Assembly (NCBI GenBank): GCA_003344405.1
Contig: NOWV01000139.1
Span: 124,001-188,000, forward strand
Length of the DNA stretch: 64,000 nt
Reading direction: 5' to 3'
Source of the DNA: Trichoplax sp. H2
Lineage: Eukaryota
A program made the position numbers and the translations under genes. This document shows, in pieces, positions 14,135 to 32,165 of the stretch. Numbering within the stretch: position 1 is the first letter of the stretch; every line of letters begins with the position of its first letter. The notes under the pieces are model-generated. The model searched no databases and was not told the origin of the DNA. It saw nothing but the letters and a program-made list of their open reading frames with translations.

Positions 14135-16331
14135 ATGCTCTCAGGAATGTCTGGAGAATCAACTAGATCTCTAAAGGCTAGGCGCTCACATTCTCTTGGT
14201 GGGCAGATCAGACCGCAAAGATTAGAACACGATAAAGATGAAGATGTTGATGAAGGAATGGATATTGATGAGAAGACTAGATTGCCGCCACAATCGTCTG
14301 CAAACCGCTTTATGAGTCTCTTTCGTTTTACCAGTCAAAATGGACATCAAGGCATTCCTCGAGAGAGTAGTAGCGAAGGAGATATACGTTCCATTGGCAC
14401 CAACGACAATAGTATCTCTGAAGATGCAAAGAAAGATAAAATAAGAGATGAAATAACTAAGGTTAGACCTTGAGAACAATGTTTCGTACAAGCATTTCCA
14501 AGTATATATATATATACCTTCATAATACAAAAATGCTACATTTCATAGTAACTTGAGTGAATTTATAAGTAACGCGGTTAATCCATCAGTATAACAATAC
14601 AATATTGACAGTATAAAAATTTCAATTTCGTAATATCTTAGCTGGAAGCGGAAATACAAAGTTTACATCAAACGATCGCTCGAAAAGAAGAGTTATTAAC
14701 AAATCTTCGGAAGGAACTAGGAGTTACTACAAATTCGCCCTTTACCCAGTTTAAAGAGAAATTTCAAATGACGTTGTAAGTTGATTGTATCCGGTAAACT
14801 GATCCAGAAACAATACTATTCCATGGTGTGGTATTATGTGTTTATGTCAGTAAGCTTTCCATCAGAGAATTAAATATTCTGCTCTTCTTTACATACATTG
14901 TATCAAGTGTAGCACACATTTAAAGCAAATTTTGGCTTAAGAACAAGCGAAAATTTGAATTCTATTTTTTTACACCTAAGTAATTTATACGACTTATTCA
15001 GTGCCATTAAATGCCTTAGGGACATATGGCAAGATGATGTCATCAATTAGCTTACATTAACCATTTAGCACATCTAGTTGAGCTGTAGGTAGTATAGAAT
15101 TGGTGTCGTTTAGAGATTTGTGACTTTGGAACTAGAATAGCTGTTAGCTATTAGCTTACATTCACATTTAACTGCAGATCTTGTCTATTAACTTCTATCA
15201 CATAAATCGCCATCACTCTTGCACATTTACTTACTCTCATCGCCCTCAACTTTTATATCTTATTGACATATATCTGTTTGCCTATTTTGTAAGATCTGGA
15301 ATTACATCGGAATGTTCTACACTATATACATCGTATTTTACAAGCACCATACTCTTTACTAATGTAACTACTGTAGCTAAATCAAGTTAAAATTATCGCA
15401 GTTTACTTGAATGATTACTCACTGTGTATTATGATGGAATGACCTTGTAATAATCTCCTGCTGTATTACAGTTACTGTACTACAAGAATTAGCTGAAATC
15501 ATTACATATGATCTTTGTCTTTTAATCTAAGAATTAGTTAACCAGCTACGATGCAGCCATTCGTCCAAGCAGATATGCTTGACTAGATTATTTTTCATAC
15601 TTTAGCAATCTGAAGAAGTCCGGGAATCCTGAGCCTATGCAATCACCGCAAGATGAAAACATTACGATGAAAGATCGCTTCAAGTATTTGATTGCTAAAT
15701 TTATAACATAAAAGATAGCACTTTCGACAGTACAATTAGATTTCCTCAGTAAAGACTTTGTGGTAAAATAGTTAATGATGGAAATTGATCCGTTATTTCT
15801 GCTTATTACGAAGGGAAGGTTCAGAAAATACGATGAAAGTGATCGAAGAGAAATTTCAGTCTGCCGGTTCTGCTTTAAAAGTAAGTAATACTTGCTGCTA
15901 AAGTTGGGTCAAGTTAAACCGGTTGTTGTTACTTTGCAGCACTATGAATTGAGTTTCATCCTGTTATTTAATAAACACATAGTATAATGTATTGAATAAT
16001 AAAATTTATAAACAGAACGTGCAGGCATAAGTTTTTATACGAATGTATACCTTCTAACTGGTAGAAAACAAATCGCAACCATTACTTAGATTTAAGTGAT
16101 TAAAGATTCAGCTTTTTCTAAGAATGTAACTAGAGGTTATTCTATAGACTTCACAGATTCTTCATAAACTGACACAATTTAATGTTATCAATATAATGCT
16201 ACGTTGTATTCTAGCTAATCCAAGTTTTACAATAACTTTTCAGAAAGGAAAACCTGATTGAAAGAACTTTTATTTTTCATTATTAGAGATCAATCTGGAG
16301 GAGATCCTTGAGAGCGACTACTGGAACCTAG
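14135..16331 (+). CDS. TPD52: Tumor protein D52 family coiled-coil protein (3' end uncertain)
   Basis: Exons 14135-14461, 14642-14775, 15606-15683, 15814-15880 splice in phase. IRDEITK|LEAEIQSLHQTIARKEELLTNLRKELGV resembles the D52 coiled coil, and EKFQSAGSALK resembles the downstream D52 motif. Last exon is tentatively 16287-16331. Confidence 0.7.
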
Positions 16332-17822
16332 TTCTAAGTGAGAGTGGTGCTTATTTCCATCGCAGGAAAACAGTGGTGCTGTGAAGTATATATGCATAAC
16401 AAAATGCTCAAGTTATCTCTTGAATTTAGATCTACCGGCAAATTACAGAATTTTTATCGACTTGAAACTTGACGAATAAAAGTATGGAGATCAGTTACAG
16501 TCGATTGCCAGGATAAATGTTGCTTATTATTATTGCATCGATTAGTTATTTCGACGACGCACCACTATTTGTGGATTTATATAAAATATTGGACATTAGC
16601 CGTATCTTATATACATATATATACGTATTTGTTGTATGTTATGTTAATATTTATCTGTTACTATATATCCATAAATTAATTAATAAAATTATTCATGAAA
16701 TGATGCTTTTCCTTGCTGCTTTATACCAAATTGTCATACTGTATATAGCTTGCTGAGGGTCAGTGTCGTACTATTACCCAATGATTTAGTAGTTTTGACT
16801 TCATATCTACATGCAAGTTAGAAAAGAACATTACTACAGTTACTGTAAGCCTATGCAATTAGTCACTGATTTATGAAAGTTAGGATGCTCCATAGAACCA
16901 ATACCATTGATTACTACGTACAATAGGAATTCATATATAGATTAAAAGTTTTTATAATTGGGTTTATATTACGAAAGGGTTGCCTACTATGCCTCACTGA
17001 GATTGAAGTACTCGTATGATTATATATGTTATACATCGATATGCCCGTAAACATCAAAATACTCGTATAATGCTCCTAATTTTTATGTTTCATCGAAGCT
17101 GATGGCAAAGAAACCACCGACTCCCAATCATATCCATTGATTATATAATAAGTCACCAGGATTTACCGGAGAAAATTAAAAAAATTAGCCTTTTACTAAA
17201 TATGTAGAGGCAATTAAGAATATTTCGATCAATTATTGTTATTAGTACAGCGCGTGCCTGCTATCGATTTAATGCTCAGATATATACCGACAAATTTATG
17301 CTTTCTAACACTTTGAATAAAATTGGTCGTTACCATAACCATCTCCCACTTATATCGCACCAGAATTATTATATTATCAGAGTATACAGTACAGTAAATT
17401 TCATGCCCTGAAAAGTTTGCGATTACAATCTGACTTCGATAAGTGTCTTACAACTGAGTCTAGTTTGTGTACTACAAGCTCGGTAAAGAACAACTGTAGC
17501 CACTGGTGGCCTAAATAATTATATAATTCTTCGAAAGGAGTAACAAATATGTAAGGTAAATATGTTTCTTGCAAAGAAGTTTAAGCGCCATTGTTAGTTC
17601 CTAACGGTATACGAAAGCAATGGACAACTTTTCGACGTCTAATACACCACTCAAGATCTGATATCGCCTATTTAGTGTATACCCGTAACAACATATATTG
17701 AAATTCAAAGACTAATTCGTTTTCGTAAAATTCATAAAAGTTTATTTTTAAGAGGGGGATAAAAATTTTTGTTTTACAATAATTTCGTAGACTTAATAAC
17801 AATTCAGATCTTTGATTCACGA

Positions 17823-20800
17823 TTACCTCAGTTCCTTTTTCATCCTAGAGTAAAATATATTGCATACAACGATTAGTGATCCAAGACCCAAGAACATTTG
17901 TCTCTTAAACATGTTTATCATGTTTACGCAAAAAATCACGAGCCTTGTAAGTTACCTATCATTGGCAATGGACCTTAGTACTGAAGTTCCGGATACGAAC
18001 GTAATTCCACCAATAACGGCAAGATATTTCAGAGTAGTAAACATATTCTACAATCAAAGAAGTTGCGTTAATATTTACAAATTGAAAATATTCGATACTA
18101 ATTAATGGTATCTTACCAAATTGGTCCAGTAACAGTAATACAGCAAAAAGATGGCTATTTAGGAATTAAAACAGTGTTAGTATACGTGTGTATTATATAG
18201 TTATCTGATTGTTGTTAAGTTATTAAACTAACTTACCACCAACTCCTAAGTGAAAGACGATATTTGGCAACGTAAAGGAAAAATTAGATACATTTGCTCC
18301 GAATAGATTCCACTGTAAAAATTAAAAAATAGGCAATTATAAAAATACTCGAATTAAGTAGCTCTTCATATATTACATCTGTTTCTAAGAAAATGTGATC
18401 TAATCTTAGTCAGTAAGTCTTATAAAACAGAAGAAATACTGGTGGATGTAGATTAATGATATTTGCAATTTGATATTAAAGCTTCCAGAGATAATCATTG
18501 CCCGGCAGCCTTTGTATTGATCAAATTGCAGTATGACATTAACTGTTGCGAAACATGACTGTCTTTNNNNNNNNNNNNNNNNNNNNGCAAAAAATCACGA
18601 GCCTTGTAAGTTACCTATCATTGGCAATGGACCTTAGTACTGAAGTTCCGGATACGAACGTAATTCCACCAATAACGGCAAGATATTTCAGAGTAGTAAA
18701 CATATTCTACAATCAAAGAAGTTGCGTTAATATTTACAAATTGAAAATATTCGATACTAATTAATGGTATCTTACCAAATTGGTCCAGTAACAGTAATAC
18801 AGCAAAAAGATGGCTATTTAGGAATTAAAACAGTGTTAGTATACGTGTGTATTATATAGTTATCTGATTGTTGTTAAGTTATTAAACTAACTTACCACCA
18901 ACTCCTAAGTGAAAGACGATATTTGGCAACGTAAAGGAAAAATTAGATACATTTGCTCCGAATAGATTCCACTGTAAAAATTAAAAAATAGGCAATTATA
19001 AAAATACTCGAATTAAGTAGCTCTTCATATATTACATCTGTTTCTAAGAAAATGTGATCTAATCTTAGTCAGTAAGTCTTATAAAACAGAAGAAATACTG
19101 GTGGATGTAGATTAATGATATTTGCAATTTGATATTAAAGCTTCCAGAGATAATCATTGCCCGGCAGCCTTTGTATTGATCAAATTGCAGTATGACATTA
19201 ACTGTTGCGAAACATGACTGTCTTTCAACTGTTAATGATCACACTTTATACAACAATATTTTCACGTTGATACTAAGTTTCCATCGAAAGGTAGCAAGAA
19301 CGATAACTATAAATTCGAAATACTGCAACAAGCAGCACTTACCATTACAAACATAATCACCAAAGGTGATAAAACTAGTAGGGTGAAAGCCTTAGATACG
19401 AGCTCTGGAGGGCGTTTTTCGGGAACACGGAACACATGCTAAAATCCCCCAAAATTTTTTAGATCAGTGAAAACTGGATACATCGCCTACTCTTATTAAG
19501 TGCATTAATTCAAAAACCTGTATCTCTGGTTTAGAGCTTGGAGGAATTTTTGTCGCAGGAGCCGCAGCACCAGTCGTAGTAAACTTTAGACTAAGACTAC
19601 CCTGGGTGATTCATGTAAAAAACAACATTAAAACTATAATCTCTCTAAAGAATACTGTCCTTTGTAATATACACGATAATAATAATATTGTTGATTATTA
19701 CCACTTTCCAATAAATCTGGTTGGAAAAAGTAGGATCGCCGATAATTACGTCCATAGAGTAGTTACCACTTTGTGAGTAGAAGGTTTTACGGAGTTCGGT
19801 AATGTCCTGATTTTAAGTATTAAAACTGACATTACGATTCNNNNNNNNNNNNNNNNNNNNGCAAAAAATCACGAGCCTTGTAAGTTACCTATCATTGGCA
19901 ATGGACCTTAGTACTGAAGTTCCGGATACGAACGTAATTCCACCAATAACGGCAAGATATTTCAGAGTAGTAAACATATTCTACAATCAAAGAAGTTGCG
20001 TTAATATTTACAAATTGAAAATATTCGATACTAATTAATGGTATCTTACCAAATTGGTCCAGTAACAGTAATACAGCAAAAAGATGGCTATTTAGGAATT
20101 AAAACAGTGTTAGTATACGTGTGTATTATATAGTTATCTGATTGTTGTTAAGTTATTAAACTAACTTACCACCAACTCCTAAGTGAAAGACGATATTTGG
20201 CAACGTAAAGGAAAAATTAGATACATTTGCTCCAAATAGATTCCACTGTAAAAATTAAAAAATAGGCCATTATAAAAATACTCGAATTAAGTAGGTCTTC
20301 ATATATTACATCTGTTTCTAAGAAAATGTGATCTAATCTTAGTCAGTAAGTCTTATAAAACAGAAGAAATACTGGTGGATGTAGATTAATGATATTTGCA
20401 ATTTGATATTAAAGCTTCCAGAGATAATCATTGCCCGGCAGCCTTTGTATTGATCAAATTGCAGTATGACATTAACTGTTGCGAAACATGACTGTCTTTT
20501 AACTGTTAATGATCACACTTTATACAACAATATTTTCACGTTGATACTAAGTTTCCATCGAAAGGTAGCAAGAACGATAACTATAAAGCACTTACCATTA
20601 CAAACATAATCACCAAAGGTGATAAAACTAGTAGGGTGAAAGCCTTAGATACGAGCTCTGGAGGGCGTTTTTCTGGAACACGGAACACATGCTAAAATCC
20701 CCCAAAATTTTTAGATCAGTGAAAACTGGATACATCGCCTACTCTTATTAAGTGCATTAATTCAAAAACCTGTATCTCTGGTTTAGAGCTTGGAGGAATT

Positions 20801-23800
20801 TTTGTCGCAGGAGCCGCAGCACCAGTCGTAGTAAACTTTAGACTAAGACTACCCTGGGTGATTCATGTAAAAAACAACATTAAAACTATAATCTCTCTAA
20901 AGAATAAAGAATACTGTCCTTTGTAATATACACGATAATAATAATATTGTTGATTATTACCACTTTCCAATAAATCTGGTTGGAAAAAGTAGGATCGCCG
21001 ATAATTACGTCCATAGAGTAGTTACCACTTTGTGAGTAGAAGGTTTTACGGAGTTCGGTAATGTCCTGATTTTAAGTATTAAAACTGACATTACGATTCT
21101 GATAAATAAGATTTACTACTATGCAATAGCATACATACCAATTCTAGCGATAGCAATTGTTCATTTCGGTTAGTGAATAAGAAAGAACGATCTACATTAC
21201 ATTTGTCACATGCCAATCTTAAGAAAGCCTGTGTTTATCAAGAATAATTTCATTATTTCCTTTAATTTTATAATTATCATTTTGGGAATTATGGATACAA
21301 TATAAACAATAAAATGATAATATTACTATTGCTAACCTGTTGAGGTACAATTTCCACATTTTTTTCAACATCTTTAACAATAAATTCAATTGCTACATTC
21401 GAATGCTCATCTGCTTGAATATTCGAAGCTAGTCCTTTTGGAAAAGTCGCCCTATAATACAAATTCGACGTGGCAAAAAGATACATGAAATTATTGATAT
21501 AAATTTACTTCAAATATAGAAGTAGTCAAAATTATTACAAGAATGATATAATGTACAAGGGACTATTCTTTCTCGATTACAGTAATACCTGACTGTACCT
21601 AAATTTCAGGTACACACGTACCTTGCTTCTTTCTGTACTGAAGCTTGGTCTATGTCGCTAGTTTTTACTTTGAAGGATTCAACAGCAACATTGACAACCT
21701 TTTTAACTTTAAAGCTAGAGTCTTGTAATCCAATTAATCGTTTATCTTCCACAACAGGTGCAACATTAAAATGAACAGTATAAAATCCACGTTCAGGCTT
21801 CATTTTATTAAAATCAAACTGGTATTCACCAGCTGATTTTTCTACAAGATCTACATCACTTGCGATGGTGTTTCCTTCAGTGGACACAATCGAGGTAGCT
21901 TTGACGTCCATTTTTGGTAAAGGTTTCCCTAAGATATTGCATGCTTTCACCTATATTTCAAAACCATTGGGTTTAGCAAATTAATTGAATAAAATTAGGA
22001 TGTATAGTGATAATTACCAATAAACATAACTATTCAGGCTAAGTTAACTTACGACAATATTTCCATCGTTTTTCCGGATTAGGGCTTGACTAGTCAGGAC
22101 AACGCTTCCGGGAATTTGAAACTATTTATTAACATTTTTAAGTTAGATCACATGTTGACGTCACATTATGCCTCCTTTGATAATTCGAATAGTTATTCAG
22201 TATTAAGTGTGCATTTACAAAAATGAAAATCTACAAAGGAAGTTAACTACCTTGTTTTCAGTAAAAGCCTGAAGCCCAAGAGCAACATAGTATGCGTTTC
22301 TAACGGATCCAACATGCCTCTTGCTAACAATGTAATTGGCAAGCTTAATTGCTTGATCATTGTCAATAGCTGGAGTAAGACCTCTTGCATAGCATAGACG
22401 GTACACTCCCGTAACAAATAAAATCGTATCTCGAATCCCGCCATCAAACTGCAAATACTTATCACCAATTTCATCGGCTTGATTTAGTACTTCTCCTATG
22501 GCATTAGGGATTGTACCAATATCGGCATCTTTTGGTAAGAAAGCTGCGGCATGAAAGGCGAAGCTGTGACTGTCGTTAATATACAAAAAATGACAGTAAA
22601 ACAACAATACAGGTATCTCAATACAGAAAAAGTTGATCATAGTTATGAAATTAATATGTAGTTGTAAATGTTTATTGCATGGTTTATCTCCCTGATTACT
22701 GTCACATAGTGACTACAGGAAACGCAAGGAATATGCAATTGTCGACAGCCTGACGTACTATGATTTCTCGTAGTACGCTAGCACGGCTTGATATCCAATG
22801 CATTGGCTGTGGACTATACTTCATAAAGTTTGTGCGCAAAGGCACTAAGCTCCGTAAGCCAAATGGGCAGCGCCAACAGAGGCCAGTCCGTTGGATGCCC
22901 TCATTGGAAGACTGGTGAAGCAGAAGCTTCAGATGTATTTAAATTAGTTACGATATAAATTTCTAACCTTGCAGTGCTATCATCTTTTTCTAGTGCAGAT
23001 TTCAAGGATTTAACCACCATAGAGGCATCAACTACAAGACAATACAATATCAACATTGTAATTTCATTATCACTGTAACGTTCGTATGCAGACTGCAATC
23101 ACTGAAATTAGGTGTAACATACATAGTAATCAATAGAAAAATTGCTAAATTTATTTCAGTATACCTTTAAGATTGAACTTTGTTAGAGCACCGACAGCTT
23201 GATAAATCAAGAATGTAGTGCGGCCATCAAGTATAACATCATTTAGTACTTTTTGAGCATCTTTTGGGGGTGTCAACTAAAATTTGACATAAAAAGCATT
23301 TAGGTTAGCAAAACATAATCCACAGTAAGCAATGCAAACGTTTTATAATAGTTCTACCGTAGACCTATGATCTGTTAATCTGTTTTTGACTGCACCTTAA
23401 TTCAAAGTACGCGGCGGCATTAAACAGATTACAACGTTCATAATTTTCTCGATAGAAAAACTAGACACTTACGTTGCATTTTAAACTGTCTCCAATAAAC
23501 GCACCAAAATATAAGTTAACGAGATTCGAAGTCATCGATTTCTTGATAAATGCACAAACATCCTAGTAGAAGTTTTATCATCGTCAAGTGAGATAAATAC
23601 TAATACGCTTCGTAAACAGAGTTAAACTAGATTGTATCAAGCTTGGTTAAAGAGTGCTATCTTCTTCTACATACGTATTTAGTCATTAATTTATATCATA
23701 CCTGGTTTTCAGGCACTTTTTCATTGAGTGCTTCAAGACCAACAACAGAATAGTATGCAGTTACTAAATCTTTGTAAGGTTGAGCTGCCTTCAGTTTTTG

Positions 23801-26119
23801 AATTAATTGCAGAAGATCATTTTCTGGCACGACATCAACCTGTAACGCTGAACAGCAGATTACAAAAAGCGAGAGAGCCAAACAAATCCCTACATTGGAA
23901 TCAGCAAATGTATCGTATTACGTAGGATCAAGAAAAATACCTGAGACGTCGTCAAATATTCATTCATCCAATTATATTTGCGTTTAATTTTACACCGTAC
24001 ATTTCCGTTTGGTTCATTACTAAGTATATGATTTCTATAGCTATAGGATACAGCATGGATAAATAGATAAATATTGTAATGTACTTTTCGACTTGTGCTG
24101 CTTTACATTTCACATGTTACGTTTCTGCAAGAGCGAATTAATTACTAATCCCTAAATAATTACGGCTGCAACAGTTTATGCTTACTAGGATATTATCAGA
24201 GTCAATTACAATCTCTCGCGCCAATAAACATTATTCAAGTAACCGGTTGTTAAAAAGTAGATATAAACGAATCAACTGATGTCATCGCTGTATTACATTA
24301 CCCACTACATACTGCCGTCATGAGCGTGTTACAATGTAATCCAAACGTTCGAGAGTACTGATTAATTTAAGCATCAAGCGTAGCGTATACAGCACTGCAG
24401 TAGGCCACTTACGGATGCAAATTACCACAGTTGCGCTACAGTGCGACCTTATCAAGCCTGTTTATCCTTAATTAATCAAACTATGGACAGGACTGTACTG
24501 TACACTATTTCCCGATGTAAAAAAAGTACAAACGAAGGCCCCTACTGACAGGTGTGAGAAAAAATAGACAGTACCGCACGAGTGTACGTACAGTACAATA
24601 CACTGTACGCTACAGTATAGTACTGTATGTATGTACTGTAGGCAAAGAAGATCATTTCCTTCCTTTTTTTTTACCTCCATGATAACGTACTGCTCACGTG
24701 CTCGAAACTCACAAGTGCAGAACAGTACTTTACCATTTATACTGTACGATACACTAGCGGGCGTGAAGGACTACACAAAGGAAAAAATTGAAAAAATCAA
24801 TCAACCGACAGAGTAAAATTTCATAACCACTGGATAGTTCAAAATCACATGTTTTTCAACTAGTCTAGCATTTTTTACCTTTAAATCGCTCTAAAGTACG
24901 TTAATAAGATCCCGTTAACATTCTATAAATTTTATGACGGATTATGGATGAACAATCTATTTTTAATGTGATTCACTCTAAATGGGTAACAAAATTAATT
25001 ACGAAATTAATTTATTGAAAGTCGAGTACGGTATGTAGATAGTGTAGACTAAGTTCTCAAATGCAGTTTTATTCAAATAACGTTTTTTCCATAATATTTC
25101 GTCTATCTACATATGCGAAAGCTGAAGCTAGTTTAAGCAAAATTATCGAAAATCAAGTAATCCCTTACAGCAACCCATCTTAAATCTTTGCGATTCACGG
25201 AACCATTTCATAAGAGACAAAATTTATCTTGAACTCATGGCCAGCTAAACGTGTACGCATTGAGAACTAAGTCAAACGAAATAACTACCTCTTTTGATAC
25301 TATTTTTGCTATTCTTAAGTCAAAAATAAGTTTTGCAATTGATCTGCTATAGACTCGGCACCAGGGAAGTATAAACTTTGTAGTCTGATGGCCTTTAGTG
25401 TACATACAGTACTCACTGTGAACTAAATTTACTGAAAAAATTCAAGCACGCGAAAGGCACGAGACAAAATTGGAGTACTGTTCTGCTAGTTGATCGAAGA
25501 TACCGCAACGACCTTATCTATTCTAGACTATATATTTATCAAGGGGAAGCCATACGTCTTTCAACTGCTACTTCAGCACTGCAATTTAAAATTTTAGGTA
25601 GAACTATAAAGCCTTATGAAAACGTGTTCATATTGTGAATAACTATGCTGATCGCTATACTGGCTAAAAGTCACTACACTACAGTCTATTAGGCTTGATC
25701 GAAGTTTTTTTCTGGATTATTGAATCAGTCTACCAGGAACATTTTAACGTACAGATAATTAAGAGGCCCTGAGTAAAATGCAAAAATTTAACGAACATGA
25801 CATGTGTATTTGAAAATAATTTTCATTAACGGCTAAGGTTGATGAAAGCTTGGGAGTTGCCACGTGGCTAACTTAAAGAAGATTCTCATAGCAAACGAGA
25901 CACGCTCAAACGAAGGATTGATTGTAAAGTGCCGCAATTACTAATTTTTAGTAAGTATAGTTACGAGCATGAAATGCATCGCCTTGCCCATGTTCTACCA
26001 TGACTTACTTTTTAAGGTCTATTTAGTCCATTAAAACTATGAAAAATTCAAATTGCTACTCTTTAAACAGCATCAATGATAAGTAACAACGTCAAATTCA
26101 TACCTCGCGTAGCTGCCAT
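17823..26119 (-). CDS. RPN2: Ribophorin II (oligosaccharyltransferase subunit); 3' exons present in up to three assembled copies
   Basis: Exon 1 26119-26104 (ATG GCA GCT ACG CGA G|gtatga, phase 1) joins 23889-23702 to give the signal peptide MAATRGICLALSLFVICCSA. Further exons are 23562-23473, 23276-23165, 23031-22968, 22569-22252 (LNQADEIGDKYLQFDGG), ~22120-22053, 21950-21622, ~21451-21337, 21228-21139, 21065-20961, 20853-20770 and ~20691-20596 (HVFRVPEKRPP). These are followed by WNLFGANVSNF, YWTNL|NMFTTLKYL and a last exon 17844-17823 (MKKELR*). Confidence 0.93.
18391..18530 (-). ncRNA. H/ACA snoRNA (SNORA4/snR83-like), duplicate assembled copy
   Basis: Same sequence as 20324-20463, in repeat copy 1. 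Confidence 0.7.
19050..19189 (-). ncRNA. H/ACA snoRNA (SNORA4/snR83-like), duplicate assembled copy
   Basis: Same sequence as 20324-20463, in repeat copy 2. Confidence 0.7.
20324..20463 (-). ncRNA. Intronic box H/ACA snoRNA, probable guide for the 18S site equivalent to yeast Psi1290/human Psi1347 (SNORA4/snR83-like)
   Basis: 140 nt, sense to RPN2. Hairpin 1 has an 11-bp stem TGCAATTTGAT/ATCAAATTGCA, then H box ATATCA (20395-20390), hairpin 2 (TAATCT...CAGTA/TACTG...AGATTA) and ACA (20329-20327)+3 nt. Upper stems lie 15 and 14 nt from the boxes. Pocket 2 (TCCAC / ACTAAG) pairs with the conserved 18S sequence CUUAGU-UG-GUGGA. Confidence 0.85.
22666..22908 (-). ncRNA. SNORA73: U17/snR30 (SNORA73) H/ACA snoRNA in RPN2 intron 22570-22967
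   Basis: 5' TCCAATG closes with CATTGGA, followed by H box ATATCA (22794-22789). The 3' domain TGCATATTCCTT...GGGAGATAAACCATGCAATAAACATTT carries m1 (ATATTCCT, 22734-22727), m2 (AAACCAT, 22685-22679) and an ACA box 3 nt from the end. It forms a GC-rich island in an AT-rich intron. Confidence 0.92.
24485..24750. repeat. Degenerate CAGTA/TACTG cluster inside RPN2 intron 1
   Basis: Multiple ctgtactgtac, tacagtac, tagtactgta and cagtact units, plus an E-box tcacgtg. Confidence 0.7.
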
Positions 26120-27018
26120 CTTCCGCTTCGAAAAATAGATAGATCGTCTGCAATGCGCTTATGCTCAGTGTACTGTATTTACAGCCTAGGATCTTGACTA
26201 CCGTACTGTGTATCAGTCACCAGAAGTACAGTACATTGTACACTGTACAGTGTACAGTACTGTAGAGTACAGTATTTTTCTTTTCGTTTACAGTACAGTA
26301 CAGTACTGGACATTAGTACGGTAGCGTACCGTCTGGACAGAGGGCTTTCGCTACATGCTTTAACCTTTAGTTTTGTACAGTACAGTACAGTACAGTACAC
26401 CGAGTTATCAAATACAACTACTGTACAGTGTACAGTATTTCTGCTACACAGTGTACAGTACTGTACTGTACAGTACAGTACATAAAAAGAAGGGTCGCTA
26501 CTGTACAGTACGGTACAGTACAGTACAGCTTACGCACGTGTCGTTAAAACAAACAAACAAACGAAGAACATTACTAATCTACTGTACAACAGTACACAAG
26601 TGTACAGTAGGTACGGTACATACTGTACAGTACAGTCAGTTACAGTACAGTACAGTATTGTACAGTACAGTGGTTTACAGTGTACTGTACTGTACTGTAC
26701 TGTAGTCTTAGACTGTAGTACAGTACAGTCAATTACATGCATACTGAACAATGCATTATGCATTCAGGGATCTGGTACAGGCTGCTTGATTATAATAATG
26801 AGCTAGCTAACCTATGCAGTACAGGATAGTATCTAAAGAAAGCCAGAAAAACAGATTGAGCAATCAGCCTCTGATACTGTACAGTACTGTACTGTACAGT
26901 ACACTGTACACTGTGTACACTGCTGTACTGTGTACAGTATTTTAGGATCACTTCTTTGCGGTAGTTTATTGTACCTGATATAAAAATATAAGTAAACAAT
27001 AAATAGCAAGCTTGTAAA
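26120..27018. promoter_or_regulatory. Bidirectional RPN2/NAPRT promoter region filled with a (CAGTA)n/(TACTG)n array (~26165-26945)
   Basis: Divergent ATGs at 26119 (-) and 27019 (+) with dense pentamer arrays between them. An ETS/YY1-like CGGAAGATGGC overlaps the RPN2 start. Confidence 0.8.
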
Positions 27019-30000
27019 ATGGCTACTAAGATGGTGCATCAAGGAATTGTTCAGCCACTGCTTACAGATTTATATCAGATCACAATGGCATACGCTTACT
27101 GGAAATTTAATAAACAAAGTCAGGCTGCAGTCTTTGAATTATTTTTTCGAAATAACCCATTTAAGGGAGGGTATACAATATTTGCTGGATTGAGTGATTG
27201 CATTGAGTTCGTTTCCAATTTTGCATACAGCAAATCAGGTATGGAGCACACAATTACTACTTGTAGAAGCTATCGCTATAGCTTTTAATAAGACTATGAA
27301 AGCAGACAGTTCCTGTTGAAACTCAGATAGTGTAAATGAATTAGAATATTATTACTTATTCTATCTACGTATTGCCAATGGTATTGCTAAGAACAATACA
27401 CTACTCGGACAGAGTTGCTGTAATCTAGTTTATTTTAATTAATCAACAATGTCTAATTCTGATGGTGCAATAATTACTGTAAATAAATAATAACATGCTT
27501 TAGAAAATAAATTCATCAAATTCTATCAGATATAGACTATGTAAAATCCATACTGCCATCCTCTGTTGAAGAAGAATTCTTTCATTTTCTTTCTGGCATA
27601 CACGGGGACCAGGTTACAATTGCAGCTGTCCCGGAGGGTTCAGTGGTATTTCCCAGAGTGCCTTTGCTAAGAGTTGAAGGTCCTTTAGCTAGTAAGCAAC
27701 TTTATCTGTTGTCCTTGATAATATCCTGAAATAAATTTTCGCGAAATAAAATATCGCAACGTCATTTGTGTTAGCTATTATCAAGAGCATGCAAATTTAG
27801 TGATGCAGTGGCTTTATTAGGTAGGAGTGCAATATACAGTACATCATTTAAACTGCTAACTACTGTTTGTCGCTTTAAATGAATGGTTGCATGCGTAAAA
27901 ATCGTAAACTTTCGTAGCTTAGGCATTTTAAACTGCAGTTACTGAGTACCACACTTGTTGCTAATAAAGAATATAACTTATTAAAAAATTGCAATGTTGA
28001 GTCGACTATGCCAAATTTATGTGCAGTCATGGAATACATTACCACAGTAGAAGAGGACCGTTTTCTAACGAGTAATTTATTATTGGTAGCTTTGAATTCA
28101 TTTATTAATGTTTACCATGACTACAGCATTTATCTTATTGCAAGGGTAGCTGTCCTACTTATGGAAACAACTTTACTTACCCTCGTGAATTATGCAAGGT
28201 AATGCCATCTCTTTTCTTTAATTTAAAAAGTCCTTGATATTAGGCCTCCTAAGAAAGATGAGCTAAAACTAAAAGCATACCATATTTCTGACATAGTTAC
28301 CATTGACTACTGTATCGTCCACAATCATTGGGCGCCATTTCAATTCTTACTAACTAAATTAAAATGACTATGTATTACAGCAGTGTAAATTTTAGAATAT
28401 GTAGGTGTGCTGGAGTTGCAGCTAGTAATATACTGTATACTGTAAGTTACGTTATATTCTTGTATTTGTGACATATCGTACGCGTTCGCAATTATGATAC
28501 TGCATAACACAGTAATATAAATAGTCAGCGTTAATCCAGTCCTGGTCCTAGTGGATTTGTGATGTAGTTATTAATTGGGAATATAAATAAGTGATGCTGC
28601 TAAGAATATAGTAATATGAATCATAGAGTTACGTACAATAAACAATGGACGGTCTATTTGATTATACGGAGACAGCCTTGTAACTACCAACGCAACGAGG
28701 TTTCGCCTAACAGCTGGAAATGATAAACCATTATTCGAATTTGGTTTACGCCGTGCTCAGGGACCGAATGGTGGCTTATCTGCTTCAAGATACTGCTATA
28801 TCGGAGGTTGTTAACATTAAATTGAATCATTTGCCAAATAGTGTGATACTGTCATGCTACTGTATATATTGAAACTCTAGTGTATTAGTTTGGCAACATA
28901 GGCATTGAGTAAAAGACGACAGACATTAGGTTAATAGCCTTTGATTAACTGCATATGCTGTATATCACAGATTATATATGCTATTTTCTAAATCAAGGTT
29001 TCAATGGTACAAGCAATGTTCTGGCCGGAAAACTTTTCTCAATCCCTGTTGTTGGTACTCATTCTCATGCTTTTGTTATGTCCTTTTCTGGCTTAACGGA
29101 TCTTTGTAAAACTCATGTGCAATATGCCACTGGTTCCGATAGCAAGTTGTTTGATTTAAAATGTGGCACACAAAAATGGCTTACTCAAATATCCCCAATG
29201 CTAGACGTAGCGGAGGATGAGATTATCGAAGGTGAATTGGCTGCATTCATTTCTATTGCAATTGCATTTCCTACAAACTTTTTGGCACTTGTTGATACTT
29301 ACGACGTAATCAGGTAAAAATATCTAAACCTCGAAGAGGTGTAACCGCAATATTCGTATTGTGCATGGTGTAGTTCACATTTCTATATTGAATCTGCTAT
29401 CAACGGATTGTATTTATTATATTGTATTTATTATATTTATTATTGGATCAAAATAACATATAATTTGATCGCCTTATCGAACTTAACTGATGTAGAAGTG
29501 GCATACCCTGTTTTTGCGCCGTAACACTTGCATTAGACGAGGCTGGATATCGTGCTAAAGGCATTCGATTAGATTCAGGTGACTTGGCTTATCTTTCAAG
29601 ACAGAGCAGGTGCCAATTTCAACTGTTAGCCGAAAGGTTAGTAAATTATTGCATTGATTTATCACTTCATACTATTGCTGTAGCTGTTGCTGTCAACAAA
29701 ATGGACAGTGGCTAGCGATTTTTAAGCTCTTGATTATCTGATATGAATGGTATATAGGTTAAATAAGCCATGGCTTTCATTATTAACCATAGTTGCTAGT
29801 AATGATATAAATGTGCGGACCATGAATTCCTTAAACCAGCAGGTCTTAATGACTAAATCTAGCTAATTTCAATAATAATAATACAATATTTATGTTAGAG
29901 ATGAATTATTTTTTTGTTACGGTATTCTTTTAGGGTCACCAGATTAATGCATACGGTATTGGAACTCATCTGGTCACTTGCCAAGAACAGCCTGCACTTG

Positions 30001-30761
30001 GCTGCGTATACAAGGTAGTTTATAAGGATCTTTTTTGTAGGTTATTTATAGTAAATGTATGGTTGAAGTTGATTGCTCGTCTAAGCATCACAATTTCATC
30101 TTGATATGAAGTTAGTCGAATTGGACGGTGTTGCTAAAATGAAGTTGACTCAAGAAAGATCTAAATTGTCCTTGCCTGCGAAAAAGAAAGTGTATAGATT
30201 ATTTGGAGAAAATGGTAGTAAAGATAGGATTAATGCTTGCATGATGTAGTTACTTGTTTGATCGGTCATGGGTTAGGATCTCATTGATGTGTAGTAGCTT
30301 AAACGCCGAATTTTTTATAATCTGAAGGTAGCCCATTGGCGGATCTCTTGCAGAAATATGATGAATCACCCCCACTTGTCGATCAGCAAGTACTTTGCTG
30401 TCATCCTTTTCAAGAATCAGAGCGTAAATACATCGTTCCATCTAGAGTAGAAGAGATGAACTGTAACTATTGGATAAAAGGAAAATCATGTAAAGAAATA
30501 CCCAAATTAGTAGATATTCGAAATTATTGTCAAAATCAAGTTAATAGCCTAAGAAGGGATCATCAATTACTTTCGAATTTGAATACGTATAAGGTATCAA
30601 AAATTTCTTCTTGCATCTTTGTACGTATTTGGACGTATGACATTACTGTAAGTCGTTTCTATGTACTGTAGGTTTTTGTTAGCGATGCCTTGTACCAGAC
30701 TATGCATAAACTTTGGGTTGGTGATACTACCATGAGGGAGCCTGGTTCTTATCATGAATGA
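27019..30761 (+). CDS. NAPRT: Nicotinate phosphoribosyltransferase
   Basis: 11 phase-consistent exons: 27019-27238, 27530-27691, 28150-28198, 28676-28806, 28998-29313, 29496-29636, 29758-29842, 29934-30014, 30112-30214, 30328-30593, 30672-30761. Motifs [60 protein letters not shown]. Confidence 0.96.
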
Positions 30762-30982
30762 ATGATCACGGCAATAGGATTTCAATGTCCTGACCCATCA
30801 AATTTTAATCATTTTAATTGGATTTGATACGTGCGTGTATGTTATTATAACATTGTTATCGTTTTTACGTATAAAGTACTGTATATGGTCTCACCAGGTT
30901 TAAATGATGAATGATTTAATTAAAACAATATGCATATAATATGATATCATTTATTTTCTACCTTTACTGATTGCATTAGTAA

Positions 30983-31143
30983 TTAATATACAGTACAGTA
31001 CTGTATAATTAGTAAATGCTACAGAAGCATTTCATTTATTTAATTTTTAGTCTTCGGAGTTATTTAATATACAGTACAGTTCTGTATAATTAGTAAATGC
31101 TACAGAAGTATTTCATTTATTTAATTTTAGTCTTAGGAGTTAT
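30983..31143. repeat. Tandem duplication of ~81 bp downstream of NAPRT
   Basis: ttaatatacagtacagt(a/t)ctgtataattagtaaatgctacagaag(c/t)atttcatttatttaat...tagtctt(c/a)ggagttat occurs twice (30983, 31064). Confidence 0.9.
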
Positions 31144-31624
31144 GGGCCACTTTAGCGTCCAAATACTCTGTATGATATTAAGAGGAGTAAACTGGCCAAG
31201 AATTCGTTATTCCAAAAAAAAAAAATAATATCAAGTAATAATAATATTTATTTATATATTTCAATGAACCAACTACGCTAGACTGAAAAATTGTGAGGTC
31301 ATATTGGAGACATTGAGAATAAGTTGTCGTTTTCTACAGTACTTGGAGAAGACATTATAACCTGTTGGAAGTGTTATCTACTCAACAGAAAGCTATAAAA
31401 ATGTGTTTATGCCTCGTTCAAGTGAGTTAGTATTGGTCACCTAAGTGAGCTCACTTAGGTGGACTCTATTTCTGTCGTTTGTAATTGCAAGCTTCGCTTT
31501 GTAGCAAATACGTATCTAATCTAATACGTATCTATCAGCTATCATCTGGTATACGCACGCGTACACCGAGTCTGCTAAGAGCTAATATTTGCCTGTAATA
31601 TTGCGGGTCATAAAGTGAACGCTT

Positions 31625-32165
31625 ACAGTACAGTACAGTACAGTACTTTATTTTTGACTGAGGTGTACTGTACACTGTAGAGTACTGTACTGTACTGTAC
31701 TGTAGTGTCCAGGTCACCATCGATACAGTAGAGAGAAAAGGCTTTTACAGTACAGTACTGTACAAAATCGTGAAAAAACGAATTAGAATCATTTATTTCA
31801 CCAAAATAAATTATACAGGCATGTTTATGAGAGCTTCTTCTTTCCACACATAGTAATTTTGATGAATTTCGTTGTCAAAATATCGCAAAACATTAGTGTT
31901 GATTTCTCTGAAACGAAAAGGATCACGCTGTACTGTACAGTACAGTACAGTACAGTACAGTACAGTATAGTACAGTACAGTAGTGTACAGTGTACAGTAC
32001 ACTGTACTGTACAGTACACGAATACCTCTGTTGGCGGTACGGTACGGTTGGGAACGGTTCTAGGAAGCAGCGGTTGGTGGTTACATACGATGCCTTTTTT
32101 TTCCATACTGTATCCCTATCATGACCGTACTGTACTGTACTCTACTCTATGGTACTCTGGCACTA
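31625..32165. repeat. (CAGTA)n/(TACTG)n arrays upstream of NKAIN
   Basis: Two blocks (~31625-31765 and ~31928-32150), 0.4-0.95 kb upstream of the NKAIN ATG. Confidence 0.9.

What the first reader, a model, noticed from the sequence alone, without database searches (positions are those of the whole stretch)
22666..22908. U17/snR30 rRNA-processing snoRNA hidden in an RPN2 intron
Seen: m1 (AUAUUCCU), m2 (AAACCAU), H and ACA boxes, and a closed 5' domain, ~243 nt in total. Established: U17/snR30 is the essential H/ACA RNA for 18S processing, hosted in SNHG3/RCC1 in mammals and RPS7 in Xenopus. Inference: RPN2 is a lineage-specific host; this is a likely unannotated early-branching animal homologue with m1 ending in U rather than A.
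Basis: partly seen in the sequence, partly recalled or inferred. Interest (0 to 1): 0.8.

Follow-up and report, generated by a model that had tools for sequence, protein, structure and literature searches.

The report
Known U17 snoRNA in placozoan RPN2 intron
The stretch is a genuine copy of U17/snR30, the small nucleolar RNA needed to make 18S ribosomal RNA, sitting in an intron of the ribophorin II gene of the placozoan Trichoplax, and a U17 gene was already reported for this animal in 2009, so it is real but ordinary.

Summary
Rfam's SNORA73 model (RF00045) matches window 22907..22666 on the minus strand over its full length. The score is 86 bits (gathering score 74), E 3.5e-19, and it is the only hit at gathering score in the 64 kb.

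All the named elements are present:
- a closed 5' domain;
- an H box, AUAUCA;
- a 3' hairpin with m1 (AUAUUCCUU) and m2 (AAACCAU) on opposite strands of its internal loop;
- exactly 7 nt between m2 and ACA;
- ACA 3 nt before the end of the match.

The RNA lies in sense orientation in a 398-nt GT..AG intron (22967..22570) of ribophorin II. Spliced RNA contigs confirm that intron.

The host exon is 100% identical to a protein named TRIADDRAFT_64329 of Trichoplax adhaerens. [quoted passage not shown] The U-ending m1 is also known, from C. elegans CeN96.

The only small additions are the name of the host gene, which none of my paper searches returned, and weak RNA support. Still untested are pairing to this species' 18S, discrete ends of a ~242-nt RNA, and whether the host is lineage-specific.

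The parts
22666..22907 (-). U17/snR30 (SNORA73) box H/ACA snoRNA, 242 nt as delimited by the Rfam match. The true 5' and 3' ends were not measured.
   Evidence: RF00045, 86 bits (gathering score 74), E 3.5e-19, model 1-219 of 219; whole-RNA fold z = -2.55, 0 of 200 shuffles fold as well.
22795..22907 (-). 5' domain: two hairpins enclosed by a 6-bp closing stem (CCAAUG/CAUUGG)
   Evidence: fold of the 113 nt alone, -37.6 kcal/mol; 13 of 200 shuffles fold as well, so energy alone is weak evidence. The same closing stem is in the Rfam consensus structure line.
22789..22794 (-). H box AUAUCA (fits ANANNA), 2 nt after the closing stem (one spacer base between)
   Evidence: It is aligned to the model's hinge region.
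22753..22778 (-). Short internal hairpin between the H box and the 3' hairpin (predicted only; not part of the Rfam consensus structure)
   Evidence: minimum-free-energy structure; pair table (G130 pairs with U155).
22674..22740 (-). 3' hairpin: 7-bp basal stem (AUUGCAU/AUGCAAU), internal loop carrying m1 and m2, upper stem and apical stem-loop
   Evidence: second fold; 7 of 200 shuffles fold as well. alignment: no insertion or deletion against the consensus from m1 to the ACA box; two 1-nt insertions in the apical loop (posterior probability mostly * there).
22726..22734 (-). m1 motif AUAUUCCUU (18S rm1 recognition element; ninth base is U)
   Evidence: The same 9-mer is listed for C. elegans CeN96 in PMC7601244 Table 1.
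22679..22685 (-). m2 motif AAACCAU (18S rm2 recognition element), 7 nt upstream of ACA
   Evidence: The 7-nt spacing rule is from PMC2664660.
22669..22671 (-). ACA box, followed by 3 nt (UUU) to the end of the match
22570..22967 (-). Host intron (fourth intron of the ribophorin II gene as mapped here), 398 nt, GT..AG. The snoRNA starts 60 nt after the 5' splice site and ends 96 nt before the 3' splice site.
   Evidence: sequence; the frame is kept across the junction. table 5: joint 22569->22968 skipping 398 nt with CT..AC on the + strand, in RNA runs X9 and X20. (distances).
22968..23031 (-). Ribophorin II exon upstream of the snoRNA intron
   Evidence: joints 22968 and 23031; spliced contig records 8 and 13; tblastn with P0002.
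22251..22569 (-). Ribophorin II exon downstream of the snoRNA intron
   Evidence: Pfam PF05817 Ribophorin_II, E 3e-33. (106 aa, 100% identical to a 634-aa protein named TRIADDRAFT_64329, Trichoplax adhaerens). (joints).

Best explanation
This is the placozoan orthologue of U17/snR30 (Rfam SNORA73), the box H/ACA snoRNA that does not guide pseudouridylation. Instead it docks on expansion segment ES6 of the nascent 18S rRNA through its m1 and m2 motifs, and it is required for the early cleavages that release 18S rRNA.

It is transcribed as part of the ribophorin II (RPN2) pre-mRNA, in the sense strand of a 398-nt intron. After splicing it is most likely trimmed by exonucleases down to the H/ACA core-protein particle, as shown for human and Xenopus U17.

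Shown here: family membership by covariance model and by every sequence-level defining feature; sense orientation in the intron; splicing of that intron; presence of the intron sequence in RNA libraries.

Inferred: a mature ~242-nt RNA, binding by the H/ACA core proteins, pairing to this species' 18S, and function in 18S processing.

It is very probably the same gene that Hertel et al. reported for Trichoplax adhaerens in 2009.
For: -: full-length RF00045 match, 86 bits against a gathering score of 74, E 3.5e-19, the only hit at gathering score in 64 kb.
- m1, m2, H and ACA are all present. m2 lies exactly 7 nt upstream of ACA, the spacing that PMC2664660 calls invariant in snR30/U17 and shows to be functionally important. 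The composite motif occurs once, against 0 of 100 shuffles.
[quoted passage not shown] The 5' domain is closed and holds two hairpins, matching the description of human U17 in PMC7601244.
- the host is ribophorin II, on the same strand, and the reading frame is kept across the intron.
- spliced RNA contigs join 22569 to 22968 in both RNA runs laid (2 of 2, X9 and X20, one study). Contigs containing the intron with the snoRNA are also present in both, at depth 95.9 and 43.2. The spliced contigs have depth 1202.9 and 1010.2.
- the two neighbouring introns are bridged by spliced joints, and their interior bins have depth 0 in both RNA runs.
- tables 3 and 8: DNA-type contigs under two organism codes carry the same intron and snoRNA. 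The 3 variable sites inside the snoRNA leave m1, m2, H and ACA unchanged. Two of them fall in helices and keep the pair (C11>U gives G-U; U155>C turns G-U into G-C). The third is in an unpaired linker of the Rfam structure.
- a U17 gene is already reported for Trichoplax adhaerens.
Against: - No measurement of a discrete ~242-nt RNA. All runs laid are contigs, which cannot show ends, strand or level.
- The intron-containing RNA contigs span the whole intron and reach into one or both flanking exons, so they could be unspliced pre-mRNA.
- In X9 another intron of the gene (23288-23400) also has some cover, at depth 22.9.
- Both RNA runs come from one study.
- The 18S rRNA of this organism is not in the window and no whole genome is held, so m1/rm1 and m2/rm2 pairing was not tested.
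- The 5'-domain alignment has about a dozen non-canonical pairs (NC line). Folding energies of the two domains alone are not exceptional (13 and 7 of 200 shuffles fold as well).
- I could not see the 2009 paper's supplement, so identity with its locus is inferred, not shown.
Confidence: 0.93

Rival explanations
1. A dead copy (retro-pseudogene or decaying duplicate) of U17 that happens to lie in an RPN2 intron, with the working gene elsewhere in the genome.
For: H/ACA snoRNA-derived retrogenes are common in human, and most lie in introns (PMC1802619, abstract only). No whole genome is held here, so I could not count copies.
Against: - All defining elements are intact, including the exact 7-nt m2-ACA spacing.
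- It is in sense orientation in a spliced intron.
- No A-rich tail follows the 3' end in the sequence.
- Variants seen among four runs spare every box and keep helices.
- The 2009 annotation speaks of 'the U17 gene' and says most ncRNAs there are single-copy or in very small copy numbers.
Confidence: 0.04
2. An ordinary pseudouridylation-guide H/ACA snoRNA, or another structured intronic RNA, that only resembles U17.
For: The general H/ACA architecture is shared by all family members. Folding energies of the separate domains are not exceptional.
Against: The score exceeds the curated family threshold by 12 bits, with a full-length alignment. The m1 and m2 motifs, specific to snR30/U17, are present letter for letter at the family-specific place and spacing. 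No other Rfam family reached its threshold.
Confidence: 0.02
3. A chance match in AT-rich intronic DNA.
For: None beyond the general possibility.
Against: E 3.5e-19. 0 of 100 shuffles contain the composite motif. G+C is 46% against 26-30% in the flanks. A near-identical copy is kept under a second organism code.
Confidence: 0.01

Closest known systems
U17 snoRNA of Trichoplax adhaerens reported by Hertel et al. 2009 (NAR 37:1602, PMC2655684)
   Same: Same organism name and same RNA family. [quoted passage not shown] Most likely this very locus.
   Different: The main text gives no coordinates and no host gene name ('ribophorin' occurs 0 times). In its Table 3 only U3 is marked 'Verified', not U17.
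Human U17a/U17b (SNORA73A/B)
   Same: A 5' domain of two stems before the H box, a short internal hairpin, and a 3' hairpin with m1/m2. The length class is similar (207 nt in human, 242 nt here). Both are intron-encoded and, in human, trimmed by exonucleases (PMC7601244).
   Different: The human host is the non-coding U17HG upstream of RCC1, with two copies in two introns. Here the host is a protein-coding gene for a subunit of the ER oligosaccharyltransferase, and one copy was seen in the window. Human m1 ends in A; here it ends in U.
Xenopus laevis U17 (U17XS8)
   Same: Intron-encoded in a protein-coding housekeeping gene, with the same m1 core and the same m2.
   Different: In Xenopus it is repeated in all six introns of ribosomal protein gene S8. 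Here the Rfam scans found it in only one RPN2 intron.
C. elegans CeN96
   Same: Identical 9-nt m1 AUAUUCCUU and m2 AAACCAU; 221 nt (PMC7601244 Table 1).
   Different: A different phylum. I did not look up its genomic context.
Yeast snR30
   Same: The same m1 core, m2 and 7-nt m2-ACA spacing. This is the system in which m1/rm1 and m2/rm2 pairing and its necessity were proven (PMC2664660).
   Different: 606 nt, independently transcribed and capped, with a much enlarged 5' hairpin.

Membership tests
U17/snR30 (Rfam RF00045 SNORA73) | Covariance-model score at or above the curated gathering score (74 bits) | tested here: met
   86.0 bits, E 3.5e-19, model positions 1-219 of 219, not truncated.
U17/snR30 (Rfam RF00045 SNORA73) | Box H/ACA layout: 5' domain, H box (ANANNA), 3' hairpin, ACA three nucleotides from the 3' end | tested here: met
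   H box AUAUCA at 22794..22789 after a closed 5' domain; ACA at 22671..22669 followed by UUU. The position of the real 3' end is inferred from the model, not measured.
U17/snR30 (Rfam RF00045 SNORA73) | [quoted passage not shown] | tested here: met
   m1 directly follows, and m2 directly precedes, the 7-bp basal stem. Allowed variants are from PMC7601244 Table 1.
U17/snR30 (Rfam RF00045 SNORA73) | [quoted passage not shown] | tested here: met
   GCAAUAA (7 nt) lies between m2 and ACA. The rule is read.
U17/snR30 (Rfam RF00045 SNORA73) | m1 and m2 complementary to rm1 and rm2 in ES6 of the same species' 18S rRNA | not testable with these tools
   There is no 18S in the window and no genome is held. 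By inference only: the yeast rm1 core GGAAU is the complement of AUUCC in this m1, and rm1/rm2 are reported as conserved from yeasts to human.
U17/snR30 (Rfam RF00045 SNORA73) | Accumulates as a discrete stable RNA of about 200-240 nt | tested here: inconclusive
   contigs from 2 of 2 RNA runs laid (one study) contain the snoRNA, but they span the whole intron. Contigs cannot show ends or level.
U17/snR30 (Rfam RF00045 SNORA73) | Required for 18S rRNA processing | not testable with these tools
   This needs depletion or mutation experiments.
Intron-encoded animal snoRNA | Sense strand of a spliced intron of a polymerase II host gene, one snoRNA per intron | tested here: met
   host and strand; joint skipping exactly 22570-22967 in X9 and X20; a single Rfam hit in the intron.
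H/ACA snoRNA retro-pseudogene | A-rich tail after the 3' end and decay of the boxes | tested here: not met
   the 3' flank begins ACAACTACATATTAATTT, with no A run. All boxes are intact. Target-site duplications were not searched for.

The most novel reading that the evidence does not exclude
In placozoans the single U17/snR30 gene is hosted by RPN2, a protein-coding gene of the ER N-glycosylation machinery. That differs from the ribosomal-protein host of Xenopus and the non-coding host of mammals. Under this reading the host-snoRNA pairing is a placozoan-specific host switch that no paper I could search names. It would tie the supply of an essential 18S-processing RNA to transcription of a secretory-pathway gene.
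Probability: 0.35. Interest if true: 0.2.

Novelty: already known. Interest (0 to 1): 0.12.

Why it matters
It matters little beyond annotation. U17/snR30 is expected in every eukaryote, host switching of U17 is documented even within vertebrates, and a Trichoplax U17 has been in print since 2009.

- the host gene and intron (ribophorin II, fourth intron), which none of my three searches returned in print;
- confirmation from RNA contigs that this intron is spliced and that its sequence is present in RNA libraries;
- confirmation that the family's 7-nt m2-ACA spacing rule also holds in a placozoan.

The locus could be one data point in a survey of U17 host genes across early-branching animals.

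Tried and rejected
- Whole-genome copy count: no genome is held for this window, so single-copy status rests on the 2009 paper's wording only.
- RPN2 loci of other organisms: 4 loci were confirmed out of 554 pattern matches in metagenome contigs. In all 4 the protein match runs uninterrupted over about 1.5-1.8 kb, so they have no introns and cannot test host conservation. 0 of 4 have any Rfam hit at gathering score. This says nothing either way.
It may hold the locus and the host name.
- Atzorn et al. 2004 (PMC344193): not held. Its content is cited only through the review and the 2009 EMBO J paper.
- Earlier findings of this scan: nothing on this genome, this sequence or this family. The 8 notes returned are unrelated.
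- Sub-threshold Rfam rows: 28 of 29 rows are microRNA-family matches at 21-41 bits against gathering scores of 57-110. Of these, 27 lie in two repeat patches that match on both strands (GTACA-type simple repeats at 26367-26945; a patch at 31612-31768) and one lies at 24581-24633. Rejected as noise.
- Depth comparison between introns as proof of snoRNA accumulation: kept only as a weak hint. Contig depth is one figure per contig, both RNA runs are from one study, and another intron has some cover in X9.
- Plus-strand ORFs across the element (54 and 43 aa): no support, not pursued.

Full report
**Observation.** The score is 86.0 bits against a curated gathering score of 74, with E 3.5e-19 for the whole 64-kb window on both strands against 4227 families, covering model positions 1-219 of 219. 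It is the only hit at gathering score in the window. A more permissive scan of 15000-32000 gave the same hit (E 9.2e-20). The other 28 rows of that scan were microRNA-family matches far below threshold; 27 of them sit in two repeat patches that match on both strands and one sits at 24581-24633.

**Anatomy (minus strand).**
- Nucleotides 1-113 fold on their own into a domain closed by CCAAUG/CAUUGG around two hairpins.
- The H box AUAUCA (ANANNA) follows at 22794..22789.
- A short internal hairpin is predicted at 22778..22753.
- The 3' hairpin (22740..22674) has a 7-bp basal stem AUUGCAU/AUGCAAU, an internal loop, an upper stem and an apical stem-loop.
- m1 (AUAUUCCUU, 22734..22726) and m2 (AAACCAU, 22685..22679) lie on opposite strands of that loop, next to the basal stem.
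- Seven nucleotides (GCAAUAA) separate m2 from ACA (22671..22669), and UUU follows.

Fayet-Lebaron et al. [quoted passage not shown] They show that shortening it by two nucleotides almost abolishes 18S production.

The composite motif m1-N30-55-m2-N7-ACA occurs once in the window, and in 0 of 100 shuffles. The whole RNA folds better than all 200 shuffles (z -2.55). The two domains folded separately are not exceptional (13 and 7 of 200 shuffles fold as well), so the case rests on the covariance model and the motifs, not on energy. The element has 46% G+C in an intron whose flanks have 30% and 26%.

**Host gene.** The flanking minus-strand reading frames match Pfam Ribophorin_II (PF05817, E 3e-33 and 1.6e-6) and Ribophorin_II_2nd (PF23861, E 7.8e-20). 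The sequence shows AG|GTTAGA at 22968|22967 and ...ACGACAG| at 22570|22569, with the codon phase kept across the junction. That makes the intron 22967..22570, 398 nt. The snoRNA starts 60 nt after the 5' splice site and ends 96 nt before the 3' splice site. A tblastn of the 634-aa protein P0002 places this as the fourth intron of the gene.

**Organism.** The downstream exon (106 aa) is 100% identical to a 634-aa protein that one source names 'uncharacterized protein TRIADDRAFT_64329 [Trichoplax adhaerens]' and another 'Dolichyl-diphosphooligos...'. The next best hit has 41% identity. So the window is from Trichoplax adhaerens or a nearly identical placozoan.

**RNA and population evidence.** 20 of the 24 runs listed hold the intron, in 7 studies, under two coded organism labels. 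I laid 4 of those runs.
- *Splicing.* Both RNA runs (X9 and X20, same study) contain a spliced contig joining 22569 to 22968 (skips 398, CT..AC on the + strand), at depth 1202.9 and 1010.2.
- *Intron sequence in RNA.* Both RNA runs also contain a contig carrying the intron with the snoRNA. Record 12 covers 22542-22961 at depth 95.9, and record 7 covers 22542-22992 at depth 43.2.
- *Neighbouring introns.* Both neighbours are bridged by spliced joints (22121->22251 and 23031->23165), and their interior bins have depth 0 in both RNA runs. That fits extra stability of this intron's content.
- *Limits.* This is only a hint. The contigs span the whole intron, contig depth is a single figure, X9 also has depth 22.9 in another intron (23288-23400), and there is one study.
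- *DNA-type contigs.* X1 (organism A, 6467 nt) and X4 (organism B, 3904 nt) carry exons, intron and snoRNA contiguously, with 3 and 4 differences.
- *Variants.* Of the 7 variable places in the 1301 nt laid, 3 lie in the snoRNA. C11>U keeps a pair with G40 as G-U. U155>C turns G130-U155 into G-C. A166>G lies in a linker that is unpaired in the Rfam structure. None touches m1, m2, H or ACA. The numbers are too small for a covariation claim.

**How it most likely works.** Established knowledge comes from two papers. I read passages and section 7 of the review PMC7601244, and passages of PMC2664660.
[quoted passage not shown] This pairing is essential for the early cleavages that yield 18S in yeast.
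- Vertebrate U17 is released from spliced introns by exonucleolytic trimming.

By inference the same applies here: RPN2 transcription, then splicing of intron 4, then trimming to the particle, then docking on ES6.

The yeast rm1 core GGAAU is the exact complement of AUUCC in this m1. I could not test this species' 18S, because it is not in the window and no genome is held.

**Comparison with what is known.** Hertel et al. 2009 (PMC2655684, passages read) already annotated ncRNAs of Trichoplax adhaerens.
- They found 'the U17 gene' with GotohScan at E 1e-16 after BLAST failed.
[quoted passage not shown] - Their main text names no host ('ribophorin' occurs 0 times).
- Their Table 3 marks U3, not U17, as verified.

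The ninth m1 base U is the same as in C. elegans CeN96, and Tetrahymena and Candida glabrata have G (PMC7601244 Table 1). So it is ordinary variation at a known variable position.

The review gives the human host as the non-coding U17HG upstream of RCC1, and the Xenopus host as ribosomal protein gene S8, with a copy in all six introns.

**Searches for the host in print.** 'ribophorin' + 'SNORA73' returned 0 papers. 'ribophorin' + 'U17' + 'snoRNA' returned 0 papers. 'placozoa' + 'snoRNA' + 'U17' returned 1 paper, the 2009 annotation. These searches cover only the held library.

**Rivals.**
- *A dead copy.* Unlikely. All boxes and the critical spacing are intact, the copy is in sense orientation in a spliced intron, no A-rich tail follows, and variants spare the functional elements. 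I could not count genomic copies.
- *An ordinary guide H/ACA RNA.* Excluded by the family-specific motifs and the score.
- *Chance.* Excluded by the E-value and the shuffles.

**Attempt to test host conservation.** Searching metagenome contigs with an RPN2 alignment gave 4 confirmed loci out of 554 pattern matches. All 4 are uninterrupted coding matches, so they have no introns, and none has an Rfam hit. The test was uninformative.

**Verdict.**
- The 'unannotated' claim is not supported.
- The lineage-specific host is plausible but untested.
- Novelty: already known. The host gene name and weak RNA support are small additions.
- Interest is low.

Noticed in passing
window 17955-21113, with runs of 20 N at 18567-18586 and 19841-19860: The 3'-terminal exons of the ribophorin II gene appear two to three times. 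Residues 557-628 of P0002 match at 18321-17955, 18980-18614 and 20254-19888. Residues ~449-575 match at 21113-20596 and 19839-19289. Identical stop-to-stop frames are repeated on either side of the two N gaps. This looks like an assembly or scaffolding duplication rather than biology, but a real tandem duplication is not excluded.
   Followed up: partly
window 26367-26945: A patch of GTACA-type simple repeats (periods 5, 15, 17 and 20) lies between the RPN2 and NAPRT genes. It draws many sub-threshold microRNA-family matches on both strands in the permissive Rfam scan. A second patch at 31612-31768 behaves the same way.
   Followed up: partly
window 27007-27288 (+): The first exon of a nicotinate phosphoribosyltransferase gene (Pfam NAPRTase_N, E 2.7e-18) is transcribed divergently from RPN2. 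About 3 kb lie between the two gene starts.
   Followed up: no
window 22605 (14 nt) and 22627, 22651: In the 3' flank of the snoRNA inside the intron, one RNA-run contig (X20) lacks 14 nt at 22605. Two single-base variants segregate among the runs. So the intron flanks tolerate an indel, while none was seen inside the snoRNA. The numbers are too small for a test.
   Followed up: no
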